Of a stretch of DNA of 64,000 bases, positions 28,942 through 63,697 are shown piece by piece. Source of the stretch: Phoronis australis. Lineage: Eukaryota; Animalia; Phoronida. Position numbers and translations under genes: made by a program. The notes below the pieces were generated by a model that saw only the letters and a program-made list of their open reading frames with translations, searched no databases and was not told where the DNA came from. Every line of letters begins with the position of its first letter. The first letter of the stretch is position 1. Location of the stretch: positions 2,286,392 to 2,350,391 of the forward strand of contig NMRA01000004.1 of the NCBI GenBank assembly GCA_002633005.1, read 5' to 3'.

Positions 28942-29273
28942 NNNNNNNNNNNNNNNNNNNNNNNNNNNNNNNNNNNNNNNNNNNNNNNNNNNNNNNNNNN
29001 NNNNNNNNNNNNNNNNNNNNNNNNNNNNNNNNNNNNNNNNNNNNNNNNNNNNNNNNNNNNNNNNNNNNNNNNNNNNNNNNNNNNNNNNNNNNNNNNNNNN
29101 NNNNNNNNNNNNNNNNNNNNNNNNNNNNNNNNNNNNNNNNNNNNNNNNNNNNNNNNNNNNNNNNNNNNNNNNNNNNNNNNNNNNNNNNNNNNNNNNNNNN
29201 NNNNNNNNNNNNNNNNNNNNNNNNNNNNNNNNNNNNNNNNNNNNNNNNNNNNNNNNNNNNNNNNNNNNNNNNN
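28942..29273. other. Assembly gap (N run)
   Basis: 332 consecutive N, adjacent to a (CA)n microsatellite. Confidence 1.
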
Positions 29274-38205: not shown

Positions 38206-39644
38206 CTCCACTGCTTTGTACGATGCGAGGACGCAACACTGTGTTCTTCACACGAACGAGCCAAGTACGGCCGAGCGTGTCATCTCTCAGAAAGCGGTGT
38301 AATGGCATACCCAAAGTGCGCTTGAGACAATAATGAGTACACCCTGTTACGCAGCAACTGTGCGGCATGTTGACTGGCTCGTAAGCAAACGCAAACGACA
38401 AGTGAACGCATCACAACTGAGGAATAACAATGACTGACTCGACAGCTCGCAGTTACATGTAAATTTCACAAAACAAAATGGCGCAAAATTTTAACCTTGT
38501 AAACGTCACTTCCGGAGTAAGGCACGACTAACTAGAAAATTACGGGAAGTTATTATTAACTGGGATAGTCAACAAACCGTGTTTTTACTGAAAATGACAT
38601 GAAAAAGGTCGCCTTCTCATTTAACCGAGCATCAATAATGGTGGGTTTGTTTGGTGGAATTAACTTTTGAAAATGAGTGTTTGCTCATCAAAAACACGCT
38701 GCTATGTAATGTTCTGACAACCACCATGTTGACTGAGGAGAGAAAAAACCTTCATTGTGATCACGTTACTTGTGAGCCAAATAGAAAACAGAAAATAACA
38801 TCTTCTTGTAAAGGCACCTAACTGTTAACAATGTGATATGTGTCTTAAAACCAGTCATCTGTACATAAGACTGTCTCGGTTGAAAAGAAAAACAACGCAC
38901 TTTGACAGCAATGATGTAGATGATATTTCCAGGGATTCTTTATTGCCCCGAAAGCACGGCTTCTCGAACAGCACACAGACCGACAACAGTGTCATCTATT
39001 GTCGCGCTGTAAGGGATAAACATTCAAACAAGGTTGTGTGTTGTGTTCGCGAGGAGTAATCTTCGTTAATGATAATTCACAATTATTTTACTGCTAAATA
39101 ATATCAAATATAGCTCTATGGAACACAACTTCAATCATTTAGCTTAAAATTCAAAGAACCTGAAACTCCGACTTTTTAAATATGACTCACCATTTCAAAT
39201 TTGGTTGAGATCTTTTCAGACATACATGTAGTGGCTCAGGGATTTTAAGAATGCTTCAATATTTCTGAAGATGGTGCAAAACATTTCAAACATGAGTGCA
39301 ATACTGTAGTTTTTCAGGGAGTGGCTACTGCGTGTTTCTTTGGTATCGTTTTATAAACAAACCCTCCACAAAATGCCCTGAAATACACTTCTGGGTAAGT
39401 AACGAATGCACAGTTGTCCAAATACCTGATGATCAAATAAATGCAAAGGCGAAAACAGCAGTAGTTTGAAGCACTTAATTATTTCAATGGGACGATTGAT
39501 TTTCCACTTATTTGCATTGCCATTTTACATATACATGCATCATAACCAATCTTTTGTAAAAACACGAAACAACTAATTCCAAAAATCTAGCTCTCATGGA
39601 AAATAGTCAAAATGTATGTTACGTGAAGGGAATTTTGCCAATGT

Positions 39645-40010
39645 TTTCAGAAATGGCGACTCACTAAATCCATCGTCAACAAGCTTCAAGTGTTGGTAAA
39701 GAGATGCCTTGGTCGAATCTTACAAATCAAGTGGTCTGACAGAGTAAGAAATGAAACTGTTTGGAGCAGAGCCAAGCAGGAAGTCATAGAGATCCAGATT
39801 AAGAGAAGGATGTGGAGGTGGACTGGTCACGCGCCACGAAAGCCGAATGCAAATACCACTGAGATGTACTTTAATTGCGACCCCCAAATGATACGGAAGC
39901 GAGGCAAAACTGGAGAAATGTCACCTCTGAACACTTCTCTTTTGGCATGTCATGGGTCGCGATCCGAACAAAAGTTACCAAGCGGATTATATGGCGAGTA
40001 GTCATGGTAG
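39645..40010 (+). mobile_element. RTE-clade LINE 3' fragment (post-RT domain)
   Basis: SE.WRLTKSIVNKLQVLVKRCLGRILQIKWSDRVRNETVW...IKRRMWRWTGHAPRK...PQMIRKRGK matches the RTE C-terminal consensus (CLRRIL.I.W.D..SN.E....R..W.GH..R...G.R.RGRP). Confidence 0.85.
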
Positions 40011-43079: not shown

Positions 43080-46000
43080 ATGATTACATTCACTCTTCTA
43101 GTTTGCGCTTCCCTTTTCGCTGTTGGTAAGTTTTTTCCTGCTTGCGTTCAGTGCAATGAACTATCGTTTGATTTCAAGCTCTTGATGTTCTATATTGTGT
43201 TTTTTATTTTTTTTTTTGAGTTTTTGTGGGCAAAAACTGATACCGTTACGCGAATAGTTTAAATTTAGATTTCTCTTGTATCTACAGATTTATTGTTGCC
43301 GTTTAGAAAACGTGACACACATATGCAATTTAATGGTTATCGGTGCAAGCCTTAGTAGTCATATATGAGCTTCTTGTGACTTTTGATACTTTAGCTAGCA
43401 CATCCTTCTTGTCATTTTTTTCTCTGCGATGTTTCACTTGCCCCTTGCCCCCTCCTTCCCTTACCTAGATCAAGGCTTTCGAAAATTGGTTAGCGTAATC
43501 GTTCTATAATTAATAATTGCTTTAGGTTCATCGCAGAAAGTTTTGCCAGTTGGGACCATCTACACCACACCAGATGTCCAGAGATTTGCACCAAAAGCAC
43601 AGCATGTATTTGTTGCCAGCACGTGCGGCAACTTCAATGGTTTTGATGTCAGTGTGGGAATAATGCTGTTCCACAACCCAGACTGGAGGATTAGCCAGGG
43701 TGTGGTCAGGTTCTACGTAACCGACTTTGAACCATCTTCAGGGATGGTATGTTCGATTGAATTTCGCGGATCAAAACTTCTTGTGTCAGGTATTTTAGGT
43801 GTAATTACAACAGGTTGTGCCAAAATCTTATGGAAAACACATCACTCGAATGTTACTGAGTACAATACATTAGCGCTGTAACATCGGAATTGAACAGCTT
43901 ATAGCAGAAGACAAAAATACCTTCTGGAATATTGCCAGTGTTTCGGTTTCATACATTGACGGATGAGTTATTTATATAACCGCCACTACCAATAACACAC
44001 AGTGTGACTCATGGATTATGGATTGTTACATATTCCTTTGCCATAGTTGGTTTTGGCTTCGTTGCAAATTTTACAAGCTACATGTGCATGTCATATGACA
44101 TTTGATTTTTTTTTGTTGGGACGGTTGGTAGTTCCCGATCTTGATCATTTGTGTACACTGAGTTTCAGTTTCATAACCATTCGCATGCAATAACGTGTCC
44201 TTTGGTTTGGACTCGAGCGGACTTATTGTCTTCACCGATTTTTCCCGTCCCTATGCATGTTTCGTCTTCCAGTCTGGGTCTATGGTTTAATCATTGTACT
44301 CGAAATCGAACTTGACATGTTGTTTCCTACTTTTGTTTATTTAGTGATCGAGGTACTTATGCCATCGATTCCATATACCATTCTTCAAGTCGTATGCCAC
44401 ATGTGTAAACGGTAAATGATAATATTAACGTTTAAAATATACTTACGCTTATACCCACAGATAATGTACATGTGGCTATACGCATATGCATATGTATATG
44501 TTGTTCCTGTCCCNCACCCCCTCGGCCCCCGTAATGCGCCAGTAATGATCACTCATCGGCGCAAACCGTGATTCAATCTAAGCAGAATAATGGACACTTA
44601 TCTTGAGCTCGCACAAATGTAGAATGGAAAAGTCAAAAATAATTTTGAGTTCCATTTCGAATACAAAGGACCATGGTTTTGCATGCAAAAACGCCAGAAC
44701 CCAGTTATTTTACTCCTTTACTTTACACCTTGAGTGTTATGACTATTTGGGCGAAATCGGTGGGATAGATAGCCAAATCAAGTCAATTAAAATAACAGTT
44801 CGATTAATGTTTTCACTTTAGGCCATTCCAGCATCATCGATTTTATGCAAGAATGAGGCATTCCCCGGCGCCCAGCCTGAACCTAACTGCACAGCCACTA
44901 ACTGGGACGGAACCAAAAAGAAATTGTATGTAGTCACTACAAACGGAAATGTCGGAGGTATCGACTTCTCGGTTCTCGTGGAGTTCAAAGACTCCAAGCA
45001 AAATGTAAGTCATTTACAAGTCGCTGCACAAACAAGTAATGTCGGGACAAGACGTACGTGTACATGTAGATACATAAGTAGTTTGCGCGCTTGGATGGGC
45101 ACGAGCGTCAGTTCAAAAAAGTTGCTGTTTCCTGGAAAGACTGAACCCACAGAATTAATGTGGATTCCATTAGGTCAGGTGGCACCGTAATCGAACTTCA
45201 GTGTTATCTCTAAGCTATTTCAGTAAATTATAATACACGATCTCTGAGGAAACACGCCCTCATTACCTATTTAATTGTGTTGTCATGAATAGGCATTGTT
45301 AGCAGAAGGTTAGAGGTTCAAGTCCTGGTCGAGGCAAAAATCATTTCAAATTTATCTTTAGGTCACGTGATTTTCCAGCATAGTGCGGGTATTAGACATA
45401 TAATTCACATTTTACTCTTCATTTGTCATGTTCTAAGAACTGAATATGTAAAATTAATCTTCGAGGGGTTGTCGAATATACACACGTTTTTTAGACTGTA
45501 ACGCCTCAAGCTAATTTATAAACCGTTTAGATTAATTAAATTCTGCCATGGCGTCGTCCTTTTATCTGATTTAATCCAAGGACGAGGATGCTAGTATAAC
45601 AAAGTGAAAGTTGCTGTTTAAGAAGATAACTTCTCTCTGGTTGGTCAAATGGTATGTATGTACATTTGTCAGTACATTTGTTGGTTTCTTTATCTGAAGG
45701 TACTCACGTACAGTAAAGGATTCATACCGCCGTCTGGATTTGTTCAAGAAGTAGTATACGCGAACACCGCTCCAACCTATCTCGCTCAGACTGTAAAGAC
45801 GGAGGGCACTTTTTCGCTCTTATACCAGGAGAACTTGCTTCTGGAGTTTGCATTCTGTCCCGACGAAGGCACCACAAAACATTACGAAATAATCAGCACG
45901 GTGAATTTGTTATAAACCTCACTCTTTTCGTGTCAGTAAATCGAATTGACTATCGCAAGATTTGTACTAGAAAATAGCTTACTATAATCAAATCAGATAA

Positions 46001-47186
46001 GAATCGCTTATATATTAATGCGATTAAATTTTTCATCTATTTTAACGACGCAGTCGATAGCAGTATAATCTTCTTATTCTAACAATTATTCAAACGCATT
46101 CCATAATGCGCTTATTAAAGAGTTCATTGCTTTACCATGGGCGTCGCACCATAGGGGGCTGGGGGGCTATAGCTCCCACTTTTTTCAGTGCTGCGCCGCC
46201 CATGTTTACTGTACCATAGATAAACACGTTGTCTCAAGGAGAACATGCATTTCAACTTGGTCAATGATGAACATAACTGTACCCTTTACAATTTCATAAG
46301 GTTAAGTACTAATCTCTCCTTTGCATGGGTGCAACAAGAGACATAGTCGTCCCGCTGTATTATCAGACAATGACAATATTAAGCCGGTCCTAAATCGAAC
46401 TCTCTTCTGCAGTAGAGGGAGTAATATAAATTGCGTGACTAACAGTTTTTCAAAACGCTAGGTACTCCTTAGTTTCCTAATTTATTGGCGACGGTGTTAT
46501 GACTGAAAATGCAATATCATTATAGGGACAAATAAGTTCCTCAGCATTACAATGATAAATTTTCATATATGCGCGTATGTATGTATGTATGTATGTATGT
46601 ATGTATGTATGTATGTATGTATGTATGTATGTATGTATGCACGTTTGTATGCATATGTATATGCATATGTTTATGTCTATGTCTATGTGTGTATACATGT
46701 ATAAGTACAAAGTGTATACAAGTATATATTTATATTTAAAATTATATTTGCTTCTAAAGAAGCTGGACAAGTGGTTGACACGTGTTGCATCCTGGGGAAA
46801 TACCTTAGAATGGGAGTGGTAATGTGTTATTTTGGCACATGCCTATAGTACATCATGAGAAATACCATTGTTTATTCCCAGTTACATGTATGCAATAAAT
46901 TCTTATTCTATGCTGATGGCGCCATCTGTTTCAGATTTTTGGCACCGGAATTCACAGCGCATTCAACCAGTACCTCTGCAAGACATTGCCTTGTAATCCC
47001 GACAGCCCCAACGTAATCAACTCCAATCCAAACGAGGTCGCCCTGAACACAGCCGCCATGGTGACCACTATTGGTGACATCTCAAAGGTTTACGTCAGTG
47101 TCTACGGCTGGGGAGGCGACTACGAAACAACCTCACGAAGCTTCCGTGGACACTTCCAGTATGGTGCCTCACTTAACAGGATATAG
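43080..47186 (+). CDS. Uncharacterised secreted protein, 300 aa, 5 coding exons
   Basis: Exons 43080-43125 (MITFTLLVCASLFAVG, signal peptide), 43526-43746, 44822-45004, 45700-45900, 46935-47186. Sites are GT/AG, phases are compatible (1,0,0,0), and the joined frame is open for 903 nt. AATAAA at 47321-47326. Confidence 0.85.
46136..46204. mobile_element. 69-bp mini-MITE with 5-bp TSD
   Basis: CATGGGCGTCGCA / TGCGCCGCCCATG, flanked by TTTAC (46131-46135, 46205-46209). Confidence 0.8.
46575..46639. repeat. (GTAT)n tetranucleotide microsatellite
   Basis: About 16 perfect units in the last intron of the 300-aa gene. Confidence 0.97.
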
Positions 47187-47894
47187 AAAATGAGAGAGCG
47201 TGTGGGTTCATACTGAAGGAAATTCAAAATTCCAGTTACCCCCTGTCGCTTAGTGGTGTTAGACATATATTGTTAAGTTTACATAGCTGCTTGATTATGA
47301 CTGTGAGTGGCGTACATCATAATAAACCATAATCATCCAATAGAGATGACTCACTGTTGTCGATCTAATTCAAGGGAAACTTCAGCGTAAGTGTCACTGT
47401 TGACATAATTCTGATCTAAGATATGTACAGCAGACAACCGGGGGTGCGATACAAGGTGACAATGTCTCTGCCTTGTCGATTCAAATCATGTAAAACTTCA
47501 CTGAATGACTGTAGACATATTTTCTTGAGTATCGGACATTTAACATGATAATGTGTAAAATGGAAATCAAGGATGCTACTCAGTGTTCAATTCAATTTGA
47601 TTCAATTAGCTTAAACTATCCAGGCACGTAAACTGGTCAACATGGAGAAGATGTCATCAGACACGCATTTACGCTGAACCATGAAATAGCTGTGACTTGA
47701 AGAAATTATTAAGTGCGGTATCGTTTAATCAGATCTCCTTCATGACCAATGGTTTGTGTCAGTAAGCACGACAACAGGAAAACAACAAATGGATTCGAAA
47801 GTCAATTTTATTGCCAAACAACCAAGTTGTCACGAGAGTAAAACTGTAAGTACGAAGTGATGCTGGCTAAAGAGTGCACTTTACAATTGGCGTG

Positions 47895-50800
47895 TTATCC
47901 GTAGAGGTCCCCTGATTGTCCTGGACTGGCGAACGTTCCTAAAACAAAATATGCGACTGAGCAAAGCTTCCTTACCTGCAGTAACACTTGAATATCATGG
48001 AATGTTAATACATATTTTGTAGTGTGCCGGCGACGAATAATGTCGACACCAGTGTGAACATATGAAGTTTGAGTTTTACAAGGCGTAGGCCTGTACTGGG
48101 AAAAACGTATATTACCATAAGTTCAACCACGTCTACTGTATTGCAAAAACTTCAATGTCAGAAAAGGGTCAGTTCTAAGGAACCAAACGGTGACAGTTTC
48201 CTCAAGCCAGGACTTAGTCAACGTTCATGATCATTAGAATTCACGTGGAAACGAGCTTTTAAATGCATTGTATGTTAGCAGGCCCGTAGGAAGGCAAAAT
48301 TATTGGGGGGGGGGGGGCACAAACCATTTCGACGACGCCAAATAACTCCCCCATAGCCACCACCTCCGGGAAAAGGATAGTGTGTCCCAAATATGTACAC
48401 ACTTCCTGAACGCTTGCAGTTCAAATTCAATCCTTGTGGTTATCACTGAAAGTTTGCACGGCCTACTCCAAGGTTACATCTTATTTTTAACGTGGATACG
48501 TCAGTCAGGAAAAGCAATCAATTCAGTTTTGAAGAAAAAAATTACTCAATACTGCAGGAAACTAAAAACACCAAGGAACTGGGAAGGCAACCTTTCCAAG
48601 AAATGAGTTGAAATTTATTTATTTAAGGATTTTTAAAACGTCTTTTTCTATCTACGGTTTGTGTGTACGAATTTCATCAATGTCTTTGAAAGTTATTTTA
48701 GATAAGCAAAAATCGTCTAAGTGTACTTACTATTTGGGGATCGGATTATAGAGTTTTTCCAACTTCAGGCAGCAATTAAATTCACTGAATTATCATCAAT
48801 TCTTATAAGATTAGCTTCTAATTGTCAAAAATCATCTATGAATCTATCGATATTCGTAAATACATAAACAAGTAAATCAGAAACCAACGAATTTGTTTAT
48901 CAAACAGGAATGCTCTGCGCAATTTCCGCATGTATGCTCGAAGACTTTTGACGGGTAACCGGAGGAATATGGGAGATGAGGTATTCGTACATGTATTAAG
49001 TTGTGTTTTCAGAGGTACCTATAACGGTTCATGATGTAAACTTGAACTCCACTGACAAAAAACGTTAAAATCTTTGTTTATGAATGCGAGAGTTCCTTGA
49101 GTACCCCTTTTCCACATGTAAACTATCATCACAAATAGTAGCCCTGACAGCAGTGTTTCCACAAGTGAGAATTCCTTACAAAAAACTCATAGTAACCATA
49201 GTCCATTGGTATACTATTCTTGTGATACTACCGGAACGGAAACAGTAACATTATTTTATAACCAACCATCTGAAATAGTCCCTTTGTGTTTTTCATAAGT
49301 AGTGGTCTTCACCTTCTTTAAAATTCCACCCTTTCGATGGCGGCAATCCTACTGTATTTTTTCATTTTTTGATCAGTCAAATCATCGTTTAACGCATTAT
49401 TCTTAGAATCGTTTTCGTCAGTGACAAGAATTCGTATAAATCACTAGGGCTGATGAAAAAAATGAGATCCTTTATTACACCATTCGTTAATATTAATTCT
49501 TATCAACATCTTATAATATGTCATACCATTCTTAGAAATAGTCGATATTAATCTATTTTAAAAAATCATTTGTAATCAGTTTTATCAACCATAATTGATT
49601 GTGTGCACCTGTCGTGCACGCGCAAACATAGTGCCTGAGTACACTTGTCGTGCACGTGCAGATATACATGTATATAGAGGGACAAAGGGACATTCACCCC
49701 CAACTGCTCCACCGAGAGAGGGCACCGTCTGAAATGGGACACCTTAAGATGAAAGGCTAAAAATCATTAAGCTTGGAAAAAAGTGATCGTTCATTCCACC
49801 GTCGTGTGGTCCCAAAACGAGGCAGGGAGTGAGCTCCTTCAACATGAAAGCACGATTTCACAAAAAAACAGGAAAATAGAGATAATCGATTACAACACTG
49901 TGCCCTCTCTCCGTGAGCGGCCCCCTAAGAAAAACACAAAAGGTGGCCACTTGAATGTCATCAATGGCCTTTTTCAAGGGCGGGGCTCCTAAATATGAAA
50001 ATATGTGTACAGTATTTTCAAATATCAGGAAATTCTCAACAATTGATGTTATCTGTCAGGTCATCAATTTTACTCAAGTGATATACAGTTTCAAAAAAAA
50101 AATAAAGCGAAAGTTGTCTAAGTTATCCCTAACCATAGAGGGCCCTCTGGAAAAATATAGTTTTGCATTCGCCGGCAAAATTGACTTATTTAATTTAATC
50201 ATCCATTAAATTAGTACGCTCCGCAAAAGCTGCGCTTTACAAATTTTCTCGATATGTGTGCGTTTAGACGACCTGTGCTGCAAAAGCGAAGACACTAACG
50301 ACAGCGTCCTGGTAAAGGTCCTCAAAGGGTAAACCATGCACCGATGCAGATTTGTTAAATGTGCTCTTGAATTTTCTCTTTTATCCGTTTTTAGCAGTCT
50401 TTCTTTTGTCGACTGTCCCCGATACCATGCCTTTGTCGGTTTCCACGGTTTAACCTAGACGACTGAAAATTTGGGGGCCCGTGCTCCCCCGGCCCCCCAC
50501 TACCTACGGCCCTGGTTAGAACAAGACCAATTTGGAACAACCACGCAGGATTCTAAACCATCGTCTGATTTCTAACAAAGTAGTCTCAAACTAAATACAA
50601 AAGGCAGTCGTCGACGTGGTTGCTGAGGTGAAATCTAAATTACAGTATGATAATCTGATCGGAACATTGAGTAGGCTCGTCTGGAACTAGATTAAAAACC
50701 ATATTGCCGAGAACATTTTAAAAACCACATGGATTACGAAAACTGATGTTTTGCATAATTCGAGACAATCCATAGGAGTAACTGGAAAAGTGATGCACCA

Positions 50801-51137
50801 CTGTCTCTGTCGCTACTAATCTACTCTACTTGTTCCGATGACTAACACAGAAATCTTCAAGCACTTGACCTTTGTTTAAGTTAAATTAAACCTAACCAGT
50901 TTTGGTGCACTGTTTATGACTGCATCTTGCACTCGTCCGCTACACCTTATGCTTACCAGAACCATGATCTATCGTTAATTGTGGCCCGCTTTCTCCATTA
51001 CCATCTGCATCCCCTTTTGGTCTTTGTATTAACAAGGCGGACCCTTTATTCTTGAAGCGATTTTTCTTCTTCCTTGCATCTACATCAGAAAGCACAAGCA
51101 GTGAAATCAGCAAGATTGCTAGCCACGCCCGACGCAT
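47895..51137 (-). CDS. Secreted peptide precursor, paralog 1 (74 aa, C-terminus SGDLYG*)
   Basis: Exon 1 is 51137-50957 (181 nt, donor GTAAGC). Exon 2 is 47938-47895 (44 nt, acceptor ttttgttttag). Protein: MRRAWLAILLISLLVLSDVDA-RKKKNRFKNKGSALLIQRPKGDADGNGESGPQLTIDHGSGTFASPGQSGDLYG*. AATAAA on the minus strand at 47812-47807. Exon structure is identical to paralog 2. Confidence 0.82.
48279..50514. mobile_element. 2.2-kb non-autonomous DNA transposon with 5-bp TSD, in the intron of peptide paralog 1
   Basis: CAGGCCCGTAGGA ... ACCTACGGCCCTG TIRs, G-run and C-run subterminal tracts, TSD GTTAG (48274-48278, 50515-50519). Confidence 0.82.
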
Positions 51138-51221
51138 TCTGGATGGGATGAATGTCGAATTCAATAACCTGCTTGGCGTCAAACGCAAAAAAGATGTGTC
51201 TGTGTTATTGTGATGCCCTTC

Positions 51222-51232
51222 CACATATAAGG
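51222..51232 (-). promoter_or_regulatory. Candidate TATA box of peptide paralog 1
   Basis: CCTTATATGTGG lies about 90 nt upstream of the ATG. Paralog 2 has CCTTACATGTATAACT at a similar distance (about 62954-62969). Confidence 0.4.
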
Positions 51233-52990
51233 CAGTCGGATAGGTCTTCCAGACGCCCTGGTCATCTGACAGCGTGGGCATAATTTCAGTCCAACAGCTG
51301 ACGTTAAGTTGACTATTAACAAATTAAATAACACCTGGAACGTTTTCACTGCCCGCTGGTCTTCTTGGCCTGTCAAATCATCGAGTTGCATGACGTCTTT
51401 GTCAACAAAGTGGCTGATTGATCACATCCTGCAATGCATCCCATGGGCTCCCCTTCAATGCGTCCACAGTTTCCCAAATGTGGGAAAATTTGAGCTCTTT
51501 AATTTTCTAGCAAGCTAACACTAATTTGGGCGGAAAACACACAATATTGAGGGGATGTACATATATTCATTGGGATAGGGCCAATTTCCCCACCGAAGGC
51601 ACCTCCCCATTCTAATCCCGTGTCGATGGATTCTCTTTATGTGTAAGGAACTATACAGGAAGTCCCGCTTCGACAAAAGTTTACGAGAGGGTCTCACATT
51701 CTATTTAGGGTTGTTTTTAAAATGGCAAATGTCCGAAGAGCGACTTTCAAGTTGCGGTTATTCATAACTTGCTTTTTTAAAAATGCTGTCGGCTCGAGTT
51801 TGCAGGATCCATGCAATTGTTCTTATTGGCTATTCTGTGTACTACATGCGATGTGTACCTATACCGTAATCGTGCTTGAAATATCGAGACAAAGTTCAAA
51901 ATACCAAAAAAGCAACATCAGGAGTTATAACCAACCCAGACAAATAAGAAATCAATAATTAAGATTTATAACTGGAGAACCCACTATTGCCAATATTGAA
52001 ATAATAGGGATAAATGTGCACTTGAGGAATTAAAAGTCCTTGACATACCGTTGTTGCCAAGACATTTGTCAACAAAATCTAAACAAAAACAGGTCGCTTC
52101 AAGCATTCCATGCTTAATATTTTATATTTCCAAGTTCACAATGCTCACCAAGTGCTTAACATGAAGAAACAAGATCAGGAACATGGCATTGTAACTTATT
52201 TGAATGTATGTGTTCAGGCAAGACATTGTTTCACAAGTTTACATAGCAAAAAGACACCTTAAGCGCGGCGTGACTAACTCACGTATTTTACGTGCTCAAG
52301 ATGTCAATTTTCACGCACTTGCGTTATCCACAAACGGTGTGTTTGCATCTGATACTCTATTTCATTAAATTGTTCAAATAAGTGATATTTGGATTTAAAT
52401 GTTTTACCCAAATTTCCAATTATCTAATCATATTTGTGGTCGTGATTAAAACAGTCGACAGGAAACCTGTGGTAGTTGCTTAACTTACTCAGTGTTCAAA
52501 CACACGCTATTTGCTTAAGGAGGACAGGTGCAAATGTAGAACAAAATACTAAAAATGTCGTAGAGTAACGCGTATTTCTTCGTTACTGTGACCTTATCTG
52601 TTAATAACGACTCATTTCGTAATCACATTCTTTCTCGTAATAATTATTTCTTTTCGTAATATCAACTTTTTCTCATAATTCCAAGTTCCTTTCTCCAAAT
52701 AACACCTTCTTTCCCGTAATTACGCCTTTATCTCGTACGTATTTGCTGCAGTGATACCACTACCTCAGAATTACGCTGAGAACTATCCCGAGCTGTTCAA
52801 ATTACTGCTGGCGAGCTGTTGGTTATGGTCGTTTGTGTCGGCCTGACCGCCTTGTGGAGCACAACATTTATGGTTGTCCACTAAGTTTTGAACTATATAT
52901 ACGTATCTTCAAAGTGACAGATTAAAATTAAGTTTATGCTAGAATTTGAAAAAAATTCTAAAGCTGGTGTTCTTTTTGGTTAACAATTAT

Positions 52991-53152
52991 CAGGGACATG
53001 TGCAGGGTTTTGAGTTATAAGGGTGGGGGCAAGGCAGAGTATTAGCCAGGATTTTGTCCGTCAGACATTTGCACCCCCAAACTGCCAAATGGAATCCGAG
53101 AGAATTTTAGAGGGGGCATGGCCCCTTGGCCCCCCCTCTAAATCCGCCACTG
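52991..53152. mobile_element. MITE with CAG..CTG ends and 5-bp TSD
   Basis: Flanked by ATTAT (52986-52990, 53153-53157). Right end CTAAATCCGCCACTG; left TIR is degenerate. Confidence 0.65.
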
Positions 53153-56100
53153 ATTATATACCCTGTTTACATCGATGTTTTGACCCGTCGAAAGAAGTTC
53201 CTCTACAGAAGAGTTAGCGTCAGCGTAAATGTACAATCACAACTCCTGAACCAAAGCACCCAATCTAATGAATTTATGAGTAACAAGCATATTTGAACTG
53301 ATGTCTGAAAATTGTGTTGGTGTTTCTTAGCTTTACATGTATACGTGTAACATAAACAGAAGGATAACAATTGCAGATAATGAACAGGCAATGCGTAAAA
53401 GGGAAAACAACTAATTATACGAAAAGGCTACACTATTAGTTTACCTTGCAGCGAGGCAGGCAATGAAGACATTGGTGTTAAAAAGATGCAATATGCTTGA
53501 TCGTCACTAAAATTTAATGTGGGCAACGTGCAACACTTACGATTTCGGAACGTGCTAGTTCCTTGTACACTCAGTGGGGAAGATCAGCTCAGGAAATAAG
53601 CGATATCTTCAGCTTGCAATTATATACCGGGGTGCATCGTAAAATTTGAGTTGTGTATTTTAGGAAAAGGGAGTACCGAGCAAAAATACGCTATACCTTA
53701 ATTCGACGCAACGCGACTGGCTTCTTTGCATGCATCTTTCGGACGGTTCATCTAATACACATAACACAGAAATTGTTGAAAATGAACAAGTTCTTGTGTC
53801 AACTGCTGTTGAATAGCCCTATATCTGTATCCTTATGTTTTGAGTTGTTAAATCCAAATTCATTTCAAAAAAGACTTTATCAAAGCGAAAACCACAAAAA
53901 TTTCAGGATTGTTTTTGCAATAAAAATGTTAGATGTAATTTTGTAATTAAAGGCATTCAGTTAGTATACCCGTATCACATGTACATATACTAACACTGGT
54001 ACAAGTTTACACTAGAAGTTGATTCGAAATGGCCCTTAACTGCACTTTCATATAAACGCACCATTTTGTTACTAGTATAATGTGTGTGTTTCCATTTTGG
54101 TTGCAAGAGGAGTTTGTCGTTGACTTACGGAACACGCATACTGCGGTTTGTAAAAGTTATCATCACATATAATTATGCAAAATCGGCCATTCAATACGCC
54201 CTGGAAATATTCCGTAAAATACGCCGTGAAACACGAGAGCCAATCCGTCTACGGTGGTAGAGGCTGTATTTCACTATTCTCACGGTTGAAGTTCAGTCTC
54301 CTGATCGAGTGAGTTCGAGTTTACGATGGCAAATTTGTTTGGGCCCGTTCATTTGGTTTACCTACATGTACATGTGCAACACTGATCTAAAGCGTCTTTC
54401 CTGAAAAAGCCGTTTCACTGCTCTAAACACTATAAGCTTTCATCAAAGTTTTCCTACGCAAATTTCGACGCACGGTGTTAAGGAGGTCATGCTGCTTCTC
54501 TGGCTTTAATTTAAGTCAAGAAAAATAGATAAATTTCCTACATAGCTTCCCCAACAAAATCAGGAAAAAATCTAATTCAAATCAAACGTAAACGTTATGT
54601 CATGGATGCATAAAATGAATCTACAATGAGAACTAGGATTTTTACACGAAATTAATACCTATTATCGATTTTGTGTTTTTTACCGAAACATCGTCTGCTC
54701 GCAGCGTTCCTCGACTCTCCCACGCCTGTGGCGTAAAATCTGCGATACAGTCCTTACCTCAAGTTCTGCGAATCAGCACAGTTTACACCACTGTTTTCCA
54801 AACAGGGGGGACACATTTCTATTACTATTTTCATTCCATGAGGTAAGACCCGAACATAGACCTAGAAAACTAAGAAATTCATCGAACCTGAAACAATACG
54901 CTGCACAACTGTTTTAACTTAAAAGTTGATGTTTTTATATTCCCGGATAAATCGTTTCAAGTTTCTGACGAATTTTTATATTTATTCAGTGTTCATCGAT
55001 TTAACTTGTATATTTCCCGAACTGAAAATTCTTATAAATTTGTTAGACCTTGACTAGCTACAGTGTATTCACCGTCAAAGATAACCTTATCGCTCATTCG
55101 GCACGGTTAACCGGACATCTATAGACCTAATTCACGCCGACAGGAGGCGCGTTCTAAAACGAGGCTCGTTACGGTAGCTCTGTTGGCTTTTCGTCAAATT
55201 TGACGACAATTTTGTGAACTTAAACGTGGAAGAGCATGCCACGAGTGATACTCAGTAGTTCCTTGAAGTTGTTGAGTAAATGTGGTCCAGTAATTTTGTC
55301 TTTGGTGCTATCTACCCGCTGTGATAGGCCCGGCAATTTCAATACCCGTTCTTGTTTAGTGGAAGGTTTTGGGTGGAATACAGAGAAGTAGAATTGTGCA
55401 AAAATCTGGTTGGCAATGACACACATTTCAACCTACATTTCTGGAATATAGGAAGCAAAAACATTTTGGATTCGTGTACCCTCTCTAGCACCGGGACAAT
55501 TGTGAATTTGTGACTTAAGGTATGAACAGGCGAAAATCGAATTTCTTGGCCATCATTTGTCATCTTGATTTTTTCTGATGGACGTAGAAAGACAAACGGA
55601 CATGGCTCTGGTGAATTTCTTAATTTTGAGAAGTCTCAATGAGTGTATTTTCTGTAAGTTGTGTCTTTCTTCAAGTGTGTTAAGACAAGGTGGAAGCAAG
55701 GGTTTTTATTGACCCAGACAAGCGATGACGTCCAATTCAGCCATTCGAACTGCGGTCTTGCCCTTAGTGGTACATCTACCGAGTACCAACACGGAAGATG
55801 TACCAGCTGTCCAATTACATAAAAATCGTTTCCACATTCTATGAAACATTTCAAAGAATAACCTTAATTTAAGATGACTGTTTATTATCTATGTTGATTA
55901 TTTCCTTATTGGAAATGCCGCAAAATTCATGTGAATCAGGTAAAATTAACCAGCTTCCTACCAAGAGGTACTGAATTCAGCCTCTTCCGCGTAATGTATG
56001 ACAAAACTGGTTAAGTGTAGTGCAGTAGAATGACTATTCCTTATCTTACCCCTTAAGTACGACGAATGATGGGAAGTTGTATTTTTGATGTTAAGTTGGC

Positions 56101-56549
56101 TTGGTTCACATAACTTTCGGGCCTTCTTCGGGTGGTGATTCAGTATCGAAATATTGAAAATTCCCCTGCCTCTCCCGTCATGTACTACACTTAGTCATAA
56201 GTAGGCTATATCATGCACTCTATACCTCACCTATTCTCAATCCCCATTACGGATTTTTCTACTTCAGTATTCATCCTTCCGCGGCAATGACAAAAATTTG
56301 GCAAAAGACGTCTCACGCATTGGAGGGGCACGCTTATCACTCCCATGCTATCATCGCTCGTTCTGAGTATCCACCCCTGGCTTGCAGGTGTTGTCCCTAC
56401 GGGCTCCTTTAATATGTAACAATTCTTGTTGCTTATCATTATCTTCAGTGACTTCAATACCAACCCTTTACGACGGTGTTCTAACACCAGATCGTGTGCG
56501 TGTGTAAGTGGAGACTTGAATGGAAATTGAAACATTGATCAAGATGAAT

Positions 56550-58010
56550 GGGGTTGTTCTCAGTCTGAAATTCCAAGACCCCTTCGACCCGCTATTCCTT
56601 TGACCAACGACCCCATCGACCCAGGACGCACGATCTGCTCTGACTCAAGACTGGTGCAATTGTTTACAATATGACGACATTGACCTACTCACATGATTCT
56701 GGTATCGTTCGATTTCTCGCAACGTTATCCTTTCTAAAATATATGAATGTATCCCCTACCGCGTTTCCTCCTTATTTTATCGTCGAATTTTGTTTCGCAC
56801 TATTTCCCGGTTGACACCGCCATGTTAGCTCAACTCAAGATTACAGCGCCACCTGTTGTTAATGAATGACACAGCATCATCGATTCTGAATGGTGTTTGC
56901 CCGCGCGATATTCCCGCTAAAATTTTCCTGACATAGTATGGAGGACAAGTAGCAGCATTCCTCATTTTCCAATTTTTCCAATTGTGATCATTTGAAAATT
57001 TTTCCACGAAATTGTCTGAAGTGATAGGCCTACCCTTTTCACCAATTTGGTCCTCAAAAACAACCTTCGCCTTTTTAACGGATTCTTGCTAGCGGATGCG
57101 TACCAATGTCGCCACAGGATCGAATTAGAACCCTTGGGACCGTAACACGGGTAGGGGATAGACGGGTCTCGGTCAATTTGAACTTATGAAAAGCGACGAT
57201 CTGCAGAAGGCGGTAGATTAGCTTAGTTTTTGACCGACAGGGGACTCCTTCCATTCAACATTGCGATAATACTACCGAGTACCCGCCGGGAAATAGTGCG
57301 AGGAGAAATTTTACGATAAAATACTAAGGGAACGAGGTAGGAAAAATTTCTGTGCACTTTTGGAAAGATAACTTTGCAAGGATTCAAACGATACTATAAA
57401 TGTGTAAGTCAACGTCGTTATATTGTAAACAATTACCCCGGTGGCTTGTAAAACAGAGTGGCGTAAGAGCATTATCTGAATGGCGGATTGTGAGTGTACT
57501 CTCGTTGTCACAAAAACAACGGCTACATGTACCAATGGCTCTGTTCTAGTAAACTTAGGTTGACAGTATGTTAACGTGTAATAACTTCATTTTTATCATG
57601 TCCTTCCTGTCGTATACTCGTTTACAATAAAGTACATGTAACTTTGGGATGTTTTTTAGTGAACAGCTTGATTTTGAAACTATTAACTGAGGAAGTTGCC
57701 CTTTCATTGCCTTCTAGCATTCTTCCAAAAATAGCTTGAACACACCACTCACTGAATACCAGACGAGACGAATACACTATCGCCGGGAATGAGACGATTT
57801 GTTACGTTGATACGCGGCGTAGGCTTTTGATGTGGTGTGGTCGCGTTTTTATTCTGTTTTTGCATTTCAAACTTGTTGAATCGACTCCCTTACTTGAAAA
57901 AATAGGGAAAAGCCAACCAAGCTCAAGGCCAGACTCGTTGGTATTGCAAGTTTTGGCTTGTTCTAGGTTCGGATTGAGTCGAGCTTTCGCAAACTGTGTA
58001 GAGTTCAGTA
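56550..58010. mobile_element. Longer, decayed copy of the 61271-62140 element family
   Basis: Begins GGGGTTGTTCT, has CCCCTTCGACCC repeats and TCTGCTCTGACTCAAGACTGGTG (compare 61485-61508). 57745-58000 aligns with 61805-62060. Confidence 0.55.
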
Positions 58011-59344
58011 ACGCTAGGATCTTCGCTAAAATCTAGCCAAAGTCATGTGTACCGTTTTAAAATACACGATGATATCTAAGGTAATCTCGCGCGAAGCCTT
58101 GCTTTTAATCGAGAACCTACATGTAGCGTCACTGAACTCTACACTGTACTCTGACTACACCTATCGACTACAACAAGGAGGCCTTGCACGGGGTGGTAAC
58201 CCACAGAAAGGTACTATACGCAGTGTGTTCCGCTCACTCGGGTGGGTATTTCCGCCTCTCTGGTATACGTTCGGGTTGCTCGATTAATTTTAAATAATTA
58301 CTATTGACAGGATAAATATTGATTATGTAATTTTAAAACCATGGGCTCAAACTTCTTTACTTGTACTCTACTTGTGTATTAGATGTTTTTACCTCTTTTG
58401 TTCTGAGGTCAATGCGCTGTGACGAATCTAAAATTTCAAAGATCAGGTCTTAGCAACCAATGTGGTTTTTAGTAACTAATCGTTAAGTAAGTGGATTATT
58501 ATAATTTGAGCAGAAGTCTGGAAAATATTCAAATGGAATTTGACGTTGAAGCTATAGGACTTGCTTCAGTGTACTGAAGAAATAGTATAATAGAGAGATC
58601 TCGTGGAAGATTCTAAAGATTACCTTGGTTAAGGAACAGGAAATTAACTACAAGATCAATTGCCATGCCAACACGTGTTGCATTACGAAGGACTATGACC
58701 AACAAGAGGAAACTTCCCACACCTCAATCAGTGTTGCGTCACGAAGATCTGTGACTTGCAAGATAGTGTGTTGTAAGATACTGCCAATCGTGTCCTTGCG
58801 TCGCGATAGACCGTGGCCAGCGTAGTTTATCGTTGGTAGAACGTTACTGCAGACTTGTGTTGCGTAGGGAAGGACTGTCACAAATGGTACAGTACATGTA
58901 TGTGTTAGTACGATGATCGACCAACAGGACTATCATCTCACGAGTGTCGAATCCTACAGCCTGGATAGCGATTAAGACGCTTATGGTTAATTGATTAAAG
59001 TTGTCCTTACAGAGGGCCCTAGCGTAGTTACTCTTCTTCATCGTTAGTGCACCTTATTAACAATAGGTTTCACTTGTTTTAATTAATGATAGTTATATGA
59101 ATTATTATTACTCCATTTAAGAGTTCTCTCTCCATCAATGCACAATCACAAAGCATAGCCACTTTTTAAACTAAACCCACAGTCAAATTTTGACTATACT
59201 TCTGACATATACATATAGTACTGTCCGAAGTTTACGAAATATAATTACACAAACACTGTTTATGTGAATTTATTACCACGCAGTCACGCTGCATGGTTTC
59301 CAAAGCAGGAATGTGAGTTAGTAGAACTGCTGCCAATTGGCGAG

Positions 59345-62300
59345 TTATCCGAAGAGGAACCCGGACAATTCAGAATCAGACTTCATTCCTAAAACAAAAT
59401 ATGTGAGAGTATACATATAGAAATATCACATTGTGTAGCACTGAAATGTCACACGATGTGAATACATTATTAGCGTTTACTGTAAGAATAGTTTTTATGA
59501 AATTTGTTTATTTACAAAAGTTACGTGTAGGAACAGTGTATGTGCTAGGAAACATCTCCGTCTTCAACCGCATGTACTTTGATGCAAAACCTTAACTAGA
59601 AACACTGGAAAAGAGTTAACACTACGGGACCCCTTTTTGGCAGTTTGCTCATTACAAAGTATTTTTACTTAATCTATGTTCATGATTTAAACGCCATGTG
59701 CAGGTTGTCAAAAGTTCGCGAAACTAAATCTGTTAGTCTAAGGAGGTGTTGTCAAATTAAATCCAATGGCAGTTGACGTGATTGCCAAAATCAGTCTACG
59801 ATGCAATAAGACAATCTGAGGTCAGCTGCGCAGAGCATTTAGCATAGTTGAACGAGGTACCGAAATTTGACAACAGGAGCACTTGGAGTGCCATCCAAAG
59901 TGTACTGAAATAGATGTCTCTCGCCGTCTGCACTCTGCGTGTGGCTCCTGGGGTCCTTATCAGGAGGACAAGACTGAGCTGGGTCAGATACACCGGGTAC
60001 CGGCCAAAATTGTTTTGAAATGAACAATCGCGTGACACTGAGCACCGAATGATCTACATGCATTGCGGAAACACATCCTCCAAAATTGAGCTAGCTCGAA
60101 TCTTCGAGGTTACACAGAAACTCTATGTAATAGAGTACAGTGATCACTAAATAGCCAATCTCAGACGAAATACACTCTGGCTCGGGCCACAGTTGTCCTC
60201 AGCTTCCAATTGCACCCGATACACACTACAAGGTATGAAGGAGGACTAAGAATTCCACGGATGCTCCATTTCACTTACATATCAAACTAACAAATTTACA
60301 CAAAACGGGTTCAGAAAACCATAAGCAATTGTTCTTTCTTCTGATAACATTTACAGTTTCGTGCTTCAGGGAGGTCGCAACAACTTCGAGGTCAAAAAAC
60401 AAAAATCTTTCTAAAAATCCGATGCGTACCCACTTCAGAGTGTCTTACGTAAATTTCCGATTTGTCACGGAATGTCACGACATCAATAACACCACACTTA
60501 GCCAGAATATTTCGTAACCTTCCGCGATGAAAAGGCAACTGACGATGCTGGCAATGTTGTTCACAAGGATTGACCTTGTTAGTGAAGGATAACTGAATTA
60601 GCGCAAAGCTGTTCGAAATTTACATGTATGTAAATTCACATTATTTCATTTATGTTATCACGTAATGAATGAAAGTATATCAATTAAACATTGAATTATA
60701 AATCAGTGCTGACAAAAATGAAACTCGATCAGTTTGGGCACGAAAAACCAAACGTTTTCAGTTGAAACAAATACTAAAAATACAATCGTGTGGTAAATAT
60801 CGAGCCTACGATCCGTTACTTTGTGAAATGCAGAGCGTGGCTTAACTAATTGTGCTTTGCAAGCAGCGTTGATGTTTCAAATCAAGTCTTTGGTGCTAGC
60901 AAAAGAGTCAAGAGGGTTTATTATCAATCGTCTGGCATCAAGACCAGTGGAGTATGTAGTCCAACAACCCTCCAACCTGAGATGGACAATGTACAGTATG
61001 GTGAAAACAGACAAGACTAATGCTTACCCAGATGAATTCGTCAATCAGCAACAATCTCACAAAGAATAACGAAAGTGGACGAACCGCTTCACAAACTACA
61101 TGCCTCCCATACATGTACATACGTGGAATCTCTGAGAACCTAGGATGCATATCCGAGGAACTCAAAACGAGAACTACATGTATATATTGTAGTCAAACTA
61201 AAAACAGGCATCGGTGTTTCAGGTAATTTTAGTAGTCAGTAACCTGTAATGAATCACTTGCTTTCAACGGGATTGTTGTAAAACCCCTCGTCCCCCCACA
61301 CCCCTCGTCCTCCTTGGCCCACGACCTACTCAACCCACAACCCCTTCGACCCACGACCCCCTCGACCCAAGACCCCCTCGACCCACGACCTGTTTCCAAA
61401 AGAGTTAATTTTGCGCTTTTTACATGTTTCATAATCGTATTACGTAACTGAGTGACTTTCTCATACGACATACCTACACGCGAGTCTGCTCTGGCTCAAG
61501 TCTGGTGATTAAAAACAGAAAGTGGCGCGAGAACGTGATCTGAAATAGCGCATTGTGAGCGCGCTATCGTTGTCACGGAGTAGTTCCACGAGCGGCTACA
61601 AATTGCCCAGTTCCAGGGAGAGAGTGCGTTAACTTCAATGTATATAATTTTACATTTTTTATTATTTGCTTTCTGCCGTAGGCCTGTAATCGTTTACACT
61701 ATACTCCATAACGTTAAAATACTTTTTAGCTAACAGTTTGTTTTTTTCAAACTGTGTTACTGATAAAATTACAGTTTTATCTGATCCTTGCACTGTCCGC
61801 AAAAAAGGTTGAATCCGTCATTCATTGAAGAGCAGACGAGGCGATTACACTCTGCCGGTAAGATTTGAGACGTTGGTTGGTCTTTGATTTGGTTAGGTCG
61901 CGTTGTTTTTTTTTCTGTTTTTGGCTCTCAAACTTGCCGTACTGACTCTCTTAATTGCAAAAGAACAGGGACAAGCAAACCCAGCTCACGGCCCGAATCA
62001 TTAGTCCTGCAAGTCAGCGCTTGTTCTATGTTCAAATCGAGTCGAGCTTGTGTAGACTGGGTCAAGGGGTGAGGCAATCGTGGGTCGAGGGGGTCGTGGG
62101 GTGTGAGGCCAAGTGGGTCGAGAGGTTTTTAGAACAATCCATTTAACGTGCTACCTTGAAATTTAAGCTAGGTGACTGATGAGTGCCCTTTTGGGTTTTC
62201 TGTGTGACCTTTCTAGAGTGAAATGTTCTCCCACTGCTGATGCTCAGTGTTCCGCGATTGTAAATTTAAGTTACATCTGTGAGCTACCTTTAATAGATAA

Positions 62301-62866
62301 TCTATCTCAATTTTGACAGCAACAAAGGTCCCCAGGTACCAGACGTGGAGTGCAGAAACCGACAGATATCCGGAGTTGTGGTACACTGGAGTGATCGTCT
62401 GAGATGATGACCGTTCGTACATTTACGTTTTAACTTAAAAGTACTGCCTCACCGAATAAGCCACACAATAAAAAACAAAGACAATGGAATTAGCCAATCT
62501 AGATAAATAAGTAATAACTAGCCTCTCAGCCGCTTTTACATGCTGACCACATGCAATTCTCGTGTTTGTGATAAGCAACTTTGAGTGAAGGCAGTTGAAC
62601 AATGTTTAACGTAAATGAAACCAACTCAGGTTTTCATATACATGTATGTGGCAGTTGATGATCGCTGACTTCACCATATGCCTACCGGTATCTTTCCCAT
62701 TCAAAGAGCGTGCCATGTTTTCTCCAGTATCTTCAGAAACTCTTTTCCCTCCTCGTAATCGCCGACCAGTTGCTTCCCTCTTGTAACTTCGTTTCTTCTC
62801 GTTCGCATCAACGAGAGAAAGTAGAAAAAGTGCAATCAGCAAAACTGATACCCAGGCTCGGCGCAT
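59345..62866 (-). CDS. Secreted peptide precursor, paralog 2 (74 aa, C-terminus SGFLFG*)
   Basis: Exon 1 is 62866-62686 (181 nt, donor GTAGGC). Exon 2 is 59388-59345 (44 nt, same catattttgttttag acceptor). Protein: MRRAWVSVLLIALFLLSLVDA-NEKKRSYKREATGRRLRGGKRVSEDTGENMARSLNGKDTGMKSDSELSGFLFG*. AATAAA on the minus strand at 59274-59269. Confidence 0.82.
60880..61225 (+). mobile_element. Penelope-like retroelement fragment (region C-terminal to the RT)
   Basis: NAYPDEFVNQ ... CLPY(MY)IRGISENLGCISEELK resembles the PLE motif NGYP..FI...LPYI.G.SE.I.R.L. Frameshifted. Confidence 0.6.
61271..62140. mobile_element. MITE with TIRs and subterminal ACCCCTCGACCCACG repeat arrays, in the intron of peptide paralog 2
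   Basis: GGATTGTTGTAAAACCCCTCG / CGAGAGGTTTTTAGAACAATCC. Tandem ~15-nt units at 61283-61390 appear inverted at 62060-62125. Confidence 0.75.
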
Positions 62867-63697
62867 TTTGGTTATTTGGAATGTCTGTTTCAATGACCTT
62901 CCAGGTGTTTGATTGAAAAAGCGGTTTGTGAATGTCTATCACGAAGTGCTAAGAGTTATACATGTAAGGCTGACACCAAAAGACCAGCCCCTATAAGTGC
63001 AACATATGGCGTTCAGCCCATCAATCGTCTCACTTAATGTTATGCAGGACCTAGTATGGGCAACGGAAAGTGCAATCATTATTATAAAAATATCCTTTTG
63101 TAAATTCAATACTATTAAAACATTAATCCAATTTCATCAGTTTTTGGCCACAATAAGATTAAAAACCGGACGATCGCCGCACAAATAAAAGAGTTCATGT
63201 TCAATTGAACGTCTCGTCTTTTCATTAGACATCATCAGGATCATATTTACAAAAATTTAGGACAACGAGTGCCAACATACAGCTCAGGTAACATCCGTAG
63301 ACTGAAGTGAGGGCTACATAGAATATGGTCAGTAGCTGGTCATCACAATATTTGCAGGGTCACAGAGCTCTGCATGTTATTCAGAGAATCAGTGGCATGC
63401 TGGTTCTGAATGGCCAATGACACTTTAATGTACAGTAACTCCTTATTAGGTTCTTTGCAGATAATACTAACAGAGTTGGTTTGGTGATTGTAGCTAATAC
63501 AATGCCTATATATGTTACTTTTCTCTGAGGTGTGATGTTCTTTCAACCTGTCACAGAGGCGTCTCTGTGTGAGTCCTATACATTGTAGAATTCCTTACAG
63601 TTGTCACATTCAACATTATACACAACATTGATCTTATTGAACAAGAGCAATGTTGTGTATATCCATAATCGCATCTCCATAATCAGTGAAATTATTG

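What the first reader, a model, noticed from the sequence alone, without database searches (positions are those of the whole stretch)
47895..62866. Tandem pair of unannotated two-exon genes for 74-aa secreted, probably C-terminally amidated peptides (SGxL[Y/F]G-stop)
Seen: two minus-strand genes about 11.5 kb apart share exon sizes (181+44 nt), phase-1 junction, acceptor context (catattttgttttag) and a downstream AATAAA. The ORF track shows only exon 1, so the conserved C-terminus is easy to miss. Both encode a 21-aa signal peptide (MRRAW...VDA), a Lys/Arg-rich N-terminal third, a Gly/acidic spacer and a terminal SGDLYG* or SGFLFG*, with no Cys. Established: a terminal Gly on a secreted peptide is the substrate for PAM amidation, and hydrophobic-aromatic-amide ends are typical of neuropeptides and of toxin or antimicrobial peptides. 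Paralog 2 also has convertase-type KKR, KR, RR and GGKR sites. Inference: a lineage-specific bioactive peptide family (...DLY-amide / ...FLF-amide) that I cannot assign to any known precursor.
Basis: partly seen in the sequence, partly recalled or inferred. Interest (0 to 1): 0.85.

Follow-up and report, generated by a model that had tools for sequence, protein, structure and literature searches.

The report
Orphan cationic–acidic secreted peptide pair
Two duplicated animal genes, one of them shown by RNA reads to be spliced and expressed, encode 74-residue predicted secreted proteins with no relatives found here, which are most likely cut into a strongly positive defence-type peptide and an acidic tail whose end may be amidated.

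Summary
In detail: coordinates, exon sizes, phase, splice sites, polyA signals and translations are as stated. RNA reads confirm gene A's junction (17 reads run from exon 1 into exon 2 in one run) and show a frame-preserving allele. Gene B's exon 1 had no reads in 4 of 4 runs. No true relatives were found.

The tip is more conserved than the rest (4/6 vs 7/47), but the conserved DNA block runs into the 3'UTR, and the expressed copy A has no basic site near the tip.

Best reading (0.40): signal, cationic defence peptide, acidic propiece. Rivals: amidated signalling peptide (0.27), uncut polyampholyte (0.20). A new family of a known kind; function untested.

The parts
51138..51230 (-). Gene A 5' UTR (5' end approximate), contiguous with coding exon 1
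   Evidence: Read depth continuous up to the 51226-51250 bin in X1, none beyond, no joints listed; the in-frame upstream ATG at 51281 is not reached by reads and has no counterpart in B
50957..51137 (-). Gene A coding exon 1 (181 nt): signal, cationic block, first part of the acidic block
   Evidence: 40 reads in X3, 6 in X1, 0 in X2, 0 contigs in X4; depth falls to zero at the donor
51075..51137 (-). Gene A predicted signal peptide, residues 1-21
   Evidence: Hydrophobic core, V-D-A at -3..-1, pN 0.18 vs pS 0.50 against B; cleavage inferred
51012..51074 (-). Gene A cationic block, residues 22-42 (net +9; residues 22-41 pI 12.0, 15% Arg), ending at K41-G42 before D43
   Evidence: best charge split at residue 41, P 0.00055
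47895..47938 (-). Gene A exon 2, coding part (44 nt); codons 69-74 (47915-47898) encode SGDLYG, then TAA
   Evidence: spliced reads
47807..47812 (-). Gene A AATAAA, 83 nt after the stop
   Evidence: its use as polyA signal was not shown
62686..62866 (-). Gene B coding exon 1 (181 nt), intact frame and donor
   Evidence: depth 0 in bin 62272-62795 in 4 of 4 runs
62804..62866 (-). Gene B predicted signal peptide, residues 1-21
   Evidence: 14/21 identical to A; cleavage inferred
62741..62803 (-). Gene B cationic block, residues 22-42 (net +8), ending in G-G-K-R (62752-62741)
   Evidence: best charge split at residue 42, P 0.097
59345..59388 (-). Gene B predicted exon 2, coding part (44 nt); codons 69-74 (59365-59348) encode SGFLFG, then TAA
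   Evidence: Homology to the RNA-confirmed exon 2 of A; junction not seen in reads
59269..59274 (-). Gene B AATAAA, 71 nt after the stop

Best explanation
Two tandem duplicates, one shown to be spliced and expressed, encode a predicted three-part secreted precursor that is likely cut at residue 41-43 into an 18-20 residue strongly positive peptide, likely acting in surface or mucus defence, and an acidic Gly/Ser-rich propiece that would mask its charge during storage. Shown: gene structure, splicing and expression of A, the three-block charge layout, constraint on the signal and on the charge of the basic block. Inferred: secretion; cleavage (after K41-R42 in B, where trimming and amidation would give an amidated 18-mer; before D43 in A, leaving K-G that could be amidated); action by electrostatic binding to microbial surfaces or polyanions rather than by an amphipathic pore; amidation of the terminal aromatic-Gly as a by-product of the secretory route or as a second, minor product.
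For: Charge blocks +9/-5 in A and +8/-3 in B; best split falls at 41 and 42, at the G-K-R of B. Basic-block charge kept while identity is only 4/21: neutral simulation mean about +3, P 0.012-0.030 in 4 of 4 settings; acidic block P 0.04-0.09. Signal conserved, mature region at pN about equal to pS (0.48 vs 0.52). Both cationic segments meet pI >11 and Arg >10%, the traits shared by mature myticalins (PMC5577615 section 2.1 read). Gene layout parallels myticalins: one exon with signal, mature peptide, boundary and start of the anionic part, then a phase-1 intron (passage); tandem clusters (PMC12294457 passages). The same order is typical of Ciona LCAMPs, where basic sites are absent and styelins/clavanins are cut before Asp (PMC7387483 passages), which fits K-G-D in A. 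Patchy expression (40, 6, 0 reads) and a 2%-divergent, frame-preserving allele fit a tissue-restricted, fast-changing gene.
Against: The dibasic boundary site exists only in B, the copy with no expression evidence; A has K41-G42. B's cationic block holds three further dibasic sites (KKR, KR, RR) that convertases could shred. Hydrophobic residues are only 17-25%. Under the published LCAMP screen limits, A passes barely in 3 windows (H 0.03-0.10, moment 0.14-0.15) and B in none. The blocks (18-21 aa) are shorter than myticalins (23-42) and the acidic parts only weakly acidic. B's charge split is not significant alone (P 0.097). The model does not explain why the tip is conserved. Only two paralogues and one allele were available; tissue, organism and activity are unknown. 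pN does not exceed pS, so positive selection is not shown.
Confidence: 0.4

Rival explanations
1. The active product is a C-terminally amidated signalling peptide (neuropeptide, hormone or pheromone) with the motif SGxL[Y/F]-amide on a variable acidic extension of about 31 residues; the basic third is a pro-region.
For: Tip 4/6 identical vs 7/47 (P 0.013; neutral P about 0.025); Gly-stop in both; residues 43-68 evolve like a spacer (pN 0.51, pS 0.46), as expected for precursor spacers (PMC3890597 passage); K41-R42 in B would release a 31-residue amide; modest expression in bulk RNA fits a rare cell type.
Against: Conservation covers synonymous sites and the UTR; given the tip's DNA identity its protein identity is as expected (P 0.5); the variable position is D vs F, a poor fit for a shared receptor motif; A lacks any basic site in 42-74; the supposed pro-region keeps its charge; no matching named peptide.
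Confidence: 0.27
2. The protein stays whole after signal removal: a 52-53 residue charge-segregated, mostly disordered chain that works as a mucus, adhesive, egg/sperm-packaging or mineral-matrix component, possibly amidated for stability.
For: Equal length and no gap columns between paralogues despite 15% identity in 22-68; composition kept, not sequence; low-confidence model with no structure after residue 37 (exon-1 part only, pLDDT 61.7); no shared cleavage site between A and B.
Against: Expression in the sampled runs is modest (40 reads in 11.0 million records read) for a structural secretion, though the source tissue may not have been sampled; the X3 allele is one residue longer, so length is not fixed; G-G-K-R sits exactly at B's charge boundary. 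Abalone FITZAP is net anionic with N-terminal poly-Asp, the reverse of this layout.
Confidence: 0.2
3. It is a divergent member of a described family, such as F-type SALMFamides or another known neuropeptide.
For: B's predicted end fits the SxFxFamide motif of F-type SALMFamides (PMC3594158 passages).
Against: A's end does not fit; SALMFamide precursors carry 3-9 peptides flanked by dibasic sites in 174-258 residues; no Pfam, PDB or protein-collection match.
Confidence: 0.03

Closest known systems
Myticalins / modiocalins (Mytilus, Modiolus linear cationic AMP precursors; PMC5577615, PMC12294457)
   Same: Signal, Cys-free cationic block (pI >11, Arg >10%), anionic C-terminal part; conserved signal with variable mature region; phase-1 intron inside the anionic part; tandem copies; Gly before the dibasic site (B)
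   Different: No sequence similarity to the published signal consensus (compared by eye); no 5'UTR intron before the ATG in A; dibasic boundary only in B; shorter, Lys-rich, Pro-poor cationic block; weakly acidic tail with a conserved aromatic-Gly-stop
Ascidian LCAMP precursors (Ci-MAM, Ci-PAP, styelins, clavanins; PMC7387483)
   Same: 50-100 aa, signal, cationic then anionic region, no Cys; boundary before Asp in A
   Different: Cationic block is barely (A) or not (B) amphipathic; B has no window within the anionic limit (net -3 or lower); different signal consensus; organism not shown to be an ascidian
F-type SALMFamide precursors (echinoderms; PMC3594158)
   Same: B's end fits SxFxF-Gly
   Different: A does not fit; single terminal copy, no flanking dibasic sites, much shorter precursor
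Abalone FITZAP/sp6 (PMC6952181)
   Same: Small two-exon secreted, disordered, fast-evolving, charge-driven protein
   Different: FITZAP is net anionic with N-terminal poly-Asp; these are net cationic with the basic block first

Membership tests
Myticalins | Order signal - cationic Cys-free region - anionic extension | tested here: met
Myticalins | Mature region pI >11 and >10% Arg | tested here: met
   A 22-41: pI 12.0, 15%; B 22-39: pI 11.5, 28% (criterion)
Myticalins | Conserved Lys-Arg site at the boundary | tested here: not met
   B has K41-R42, A has K41-G42
Myticalins | Mature region 23-42 aa; extension 35-75 aa | tested here: not met
   18-21 aa and 32 aa
Myticalins | Signal consensus of the family | tested here: not met
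   Consensus compared by eye: only a generic hydrophobic core is shared
Myticalins | Phase-1 intron in the anionic extension | tested here: met
   vs passage
Myticalins | 5'UTR intron right before the ATG | tested here: not met
   Reads of A run on about 90 nt upstream of the ATG without a joint
Myticalins | Antibacterial activity, gill expression | not testable with these tools
   Run labels carry no tissue; no assay
LCAMP (Ciona screen) | 50-100 aa, signal, no Cys | tested here: met
   signal inferred without SignalP
LCAMP (Ciona screen) | 18-aa window with H 0-0.6, moment 0.1-1.0, charge 3-10 | tested here: inconclusive
   A passes marginally in 3 of 36 windows, B in 0 of 36 (limits; scale values recalled)
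LCAMP (Ciona screen) | Anionic window, net -3 to -10 | tested here: inconclusive
   A: 6 of 36 windows; B: 0 of 36
F-type SALMFamide precursor | C-terminal SxFxF-amide motif | tested here: inconclusive
   B fits, A does not
F-type SALMFamide precursor | Several peptides, each flanked by dibasic sites | tested here: not met
   One terminal motif, nearest dibasic site 31 aa upstream in B and none after residue 25 in A
Amidated neuropeptide precursor (general) | Signal plus terminal Gly | tested here: met
Amidated neuropeptide precursor (general) | Conserved basic cleavage site before a conserved peptide | tested here: not met
   A has no K/R after residue 41
Amidated neuropeptide precursor (general) | Neuronal expression or MS-detected amide | not testable with these tools
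   No tissue data or peptidomics
FITZAP/sp6 | Net anionic, N-terminal poly-Asp | tested here: not met
   Net +4/+5 for residues 22-73, basic N-terminus

The most novel reading that the evidence does not exclude
A dual-product precursor: one cut at residue 41-43 releases both an amidated cationic defence peptide and an acidic peptide whose SGxL[Y/F]-amide end is a ligand for an orphan receptor, founding a new peptide family that couples defence and signalling in one 74-residue gene.
Probability: 0.12. Interest if true: 0.7.

Novelty: new member of a known kind. Interest (0 to 1): 0.36.

Why it matters
Short Cys-free secreted peptides are missed by annotation and by homology search. This pair is a verified example with directly testable products: two 18-20 residue cationic peptides and two predicted terminal amides. 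If the best reading holds, it adds an independent origin of the signal-cationic-anionic defence precursor in an invertebrate lineage. If the tip proves to be a receptor ligand, it is a new signalling peptide family. Lineage-restricted secreted peptides are common in invertebrate genomes (my background knowledge), so without activity data it is of moderate interest.

Tried and rejected
Whole genome: none held, so family size and synteny beyond the window are open. Relatives, all queried with the exon-1 part only (60 aa, alignment A1 or one exon): word-indexed protein search 1 candidate, 0 scored; HMMER over 1.84 billion representatives 1 hit, a 1515-aa shark Ig-domain protein scored over 7 repeats and rejected as a repeat-summed artefact; Pfam only sub-threshold hits; PDB 0; metagenome DNA pattern 0 and 150 pattern matches, 0 confirmed. 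These blanks are weak: two neighbouring genes also found nothing, so this lineage seems poorly covered. ESM Atlas gave no answer. No RNA holder was listed by the index; runs were added by species label. Third paralogue at 27795(+): in-frame stops, no hydrophobic core, 23 of 294 and 33 of 296 random regions align as well; rejected, though it was the best-scoring unrelated ATG of 2458 against B. No reads of 80-90% likeness on exon 1 A, so no further close paralogue was seen. Upstream ATG at 51281 as start: not covered by reads, absent in B. Positive selection: not shown. Alternative-acceptor scan had a threshold that missed the true acceptors and was not used. Rfam: 0 in the window. Literature: named amides (4 papers with FLFamide in cnidarian work, listing only), motif strings (26 papers, 25 listed, titles unrelated), searches gave nothing further; Platynereis supplements 11 files searched, 5 not searched, no MRRAW or GDLYG. 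Earlier findings: none for this genome or sequence. The organism's clade could not be fixed.
Full report
1. Observation. Gene A: exon 1 51137-50957, exon 2 47938-47895. Gene B: exon 1 62866-62686, exon 2 59388-59345. Each gives 74 residues ending SGDLYG or SGFLFG before the stop, with no Cys, phase-1 introns of 3018 and 3297 nt and the same acceptor context. AATAAA follows at +83 and +71. The pair is linked by self-blastn at both exons, and nhmmer finds no third copy in the window. An MRRAW word at 27795(+) has in-frame stops and aligns no better than 23 of 294 and 33 of 296 random regions.

2. Expression. Four runs were listed by species label and all four were laid; about 18-19% of each raw run was read. 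Run X3 shows 15 reads at 11 starts joining exon 1 of A to exon 2. A closer lay on 50851-51600 gave 40 reads in X3, 6 in X1, 0 in X2 and no contig in X4, all from minus-strand RNA, with depth ending at the donor and 17 loose ends matching exon 2. The X3 allele differs by one synonymous change (G32) and L14F, a 3-nt insertion that adds a Gly after residue 56 and P66S (both read by me), so the frame is kept. Coverage ends near 51230 and does not reach the in-frame ATG at 51281, which B lacks. Gene B's exon-1 bin had depth 0 in 4 of 4 runs; B is intact and its signal region is under purifying selection against A, but its expression and junction are not shown.

3. What is conserved. Signal region: 14/21 identical, pN 0.18 vs pS 0.50. 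Residues 22-68: 7/47 identical, pN 0.48 vs pS 0.52, no gap columns. Tip 69-74: 4/6, pN 0.23 vs pS 0.21. The tip is more conserved than the mature region (Fisher P 0.013; neutral simulation P about 0.025). But the conserved DNA block runs through the stop and 11 UTR bases (13/14), and at its own DNA identity the tip's protein identity is as expected (P 0.5). Keeping the terminal Gly alone has neutral P about 0.22; keeping aromatic-Gly, 0.067. So selection on the amidation motif is suggested, not shown.

4. Residues 22-42 are +9 (A) and +8 (B); residues 43-74 are -5 and -3. With the split chosen freely, the best boundary is residue 41 in A (P 0.00055) and 42 in B (P 0.097). Neutral evolution to the observed DNA distance leaves about +3; the observed charge has P 0.012-0.030 in 4 of 4 settings, while identity (4/21) is no higher than neutral. 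Basic residues turn over but the charge stays. The boundary is G-G-K-R in B and P-K-G-D in A. A has no K or R after residue 41, so no convertase site would free a short tip.

5. Relatives. All searches used the exon-1 part only. None gave a true relative: Pfam, word-indexed proteins, PDB, metagenome DNA. The one hit among 1.84 billion representatives is a shark Ig-domain protein scored over 7 repeats. Two neighbouring genes also found nothing, so the lineage is probably poorly covered and the blanks are weak. The Atlas did not answer. The window is animal: multi-exon SUEL-lectin/sushi and IgGFc-binding genes, about 40% GC, no CpG depletion (2385 vs 2536 expected). A marine invertebrate, perhaps a lophotrochozoan, is my inference from recalled gene families; it was not established.

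6. Mechanism. Best reading (0.40): a three-part precursor. Shown are the gene, the splicing of A and the charge layout; the rest is inferred. After signal removal, a cut at 41-43 would free an 18-20 residue cationic peptide (pI 12.0 and 11.5), amidated through G-K-R trimming in B or a cut before Asp in A, and the acidic piece would mask it in storage. The peptide is too polar for a typical pore-forming helix: A passes the published LCAMP limits barely in 3 of 36 windows and B in 0 of 36, so electrostatic binding is likelier than lysis. Against it: the dibasic boundary is only in the unexpressed copy, B's block has three more dibasic sites, and the conserved tip is left unexplained. Rival 2 (0.20): an uncut, mostly disordered polyampholyte in mucus, gametes or matrix (the exon-1 model is low-confidence and has no structure after residue 37). 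Rival 3 (0.03): a known family.

7. Comparison. Myticalins share the order signal-cationic-anionic, pI >11 and Arg >10%, a conserved signal with a variable mature part, a phase-1 intron in the anionic part and tandem copies (PMC5577615: passages, and section 2.1; PMC12294457: passages). They differ in signal consensus, a conserved Lys-Arg site, lengths and a 5'UTR intron, so this may work like a myticalin but is not one. Ciona LCAMPs share the order and lack basic boundary sites; styelins and clavanins are cut before Asp (PMC7387483: passages, and methods section). Anionic propieces that neutralise the mature peptide are described in PMC10608444 (passages). B's end fits the F-type SALMFamide motif, but A's does not and the precursor layout fails (PMC3594158: passages). 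FITZAP has the reverse charge (PMC6952181: passages). No matching named neuropeptide appeared (listings only), in PMC3890597 (passages; 11 supplementary files searched, 5 not) or in PMC4990251 (passages). Subscription journals and peptide databases were not searchable, so 'not in print' is limited to these searches.

8. Verdict. A real, previously unmatched two-gene family of small predicted secreted peptides, with an architecture of a known kind. Interest 0.36; a dual-product precursor (probability 0.12) would deserve 0.7.

Noticed in passing
window 43080-47186 (+), with RNA signal to about 50400: A convergent multi-exon gene for a predicted secreted protein: signal exon 43080-43125, exons 43526-43789, 44822-45004, about 45700-45900 and about 46937-47186 (one phase change between the second and third is unresolved, so an exon may be missing). 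No Pfam, PDB or protein-collection match for the exons tried. Plus-strand RNA reads and an X4 contig of depth 885 cover 47600-48104, so a long 3'UTR probably overlaps exon 2 of gene A in antisense.
   Followed up: partly
window about 2075-9950 (+): Multi-exon gene with a SUEL lectin domain, at least three sushi repeats and a C-terminal membrane segment.
   Followed up: partly
window 13943-17119 (-): IgGFc-binding-domain gene (E 2e-11) with a C-terminal membrane segment; no homologue scored in the protein collection.
   Followed up: partly
whole window: The palindrome TACATGTA occurs 52 times against 1.9 expected from base composition; a paper search did not explain it.
   Followed up: partly
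window 53025-53152, 55000-55460 and 63136-63300: Short dispersed repeats with many partly fitting RNA reads on both strands and loose ends; 63200-63300 folds back on itself.
   Followed up: no
window 39627-40001 (+): Frame that looks like the end of a LINE reverse transcriptase (recalled likeness; Pfam gave no match).
   Followed up: no
window 57450-57999 and 61512-62062: A 584-nt direct repeat pair at 67% identity, one copy between the genes and one in the intron of B.
   Followed up: no
window 27795-27980 (+): MRRAW and, 49 codons later in the same frame, a TGEN word that recalls gene B; in-frame stops and chance-level DNA alignment argue against a third copy.
   Followed up: yes
window 28942-29273: Assembly gap of about 330 N beside a (CA)n repeat.
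   Followed up: no
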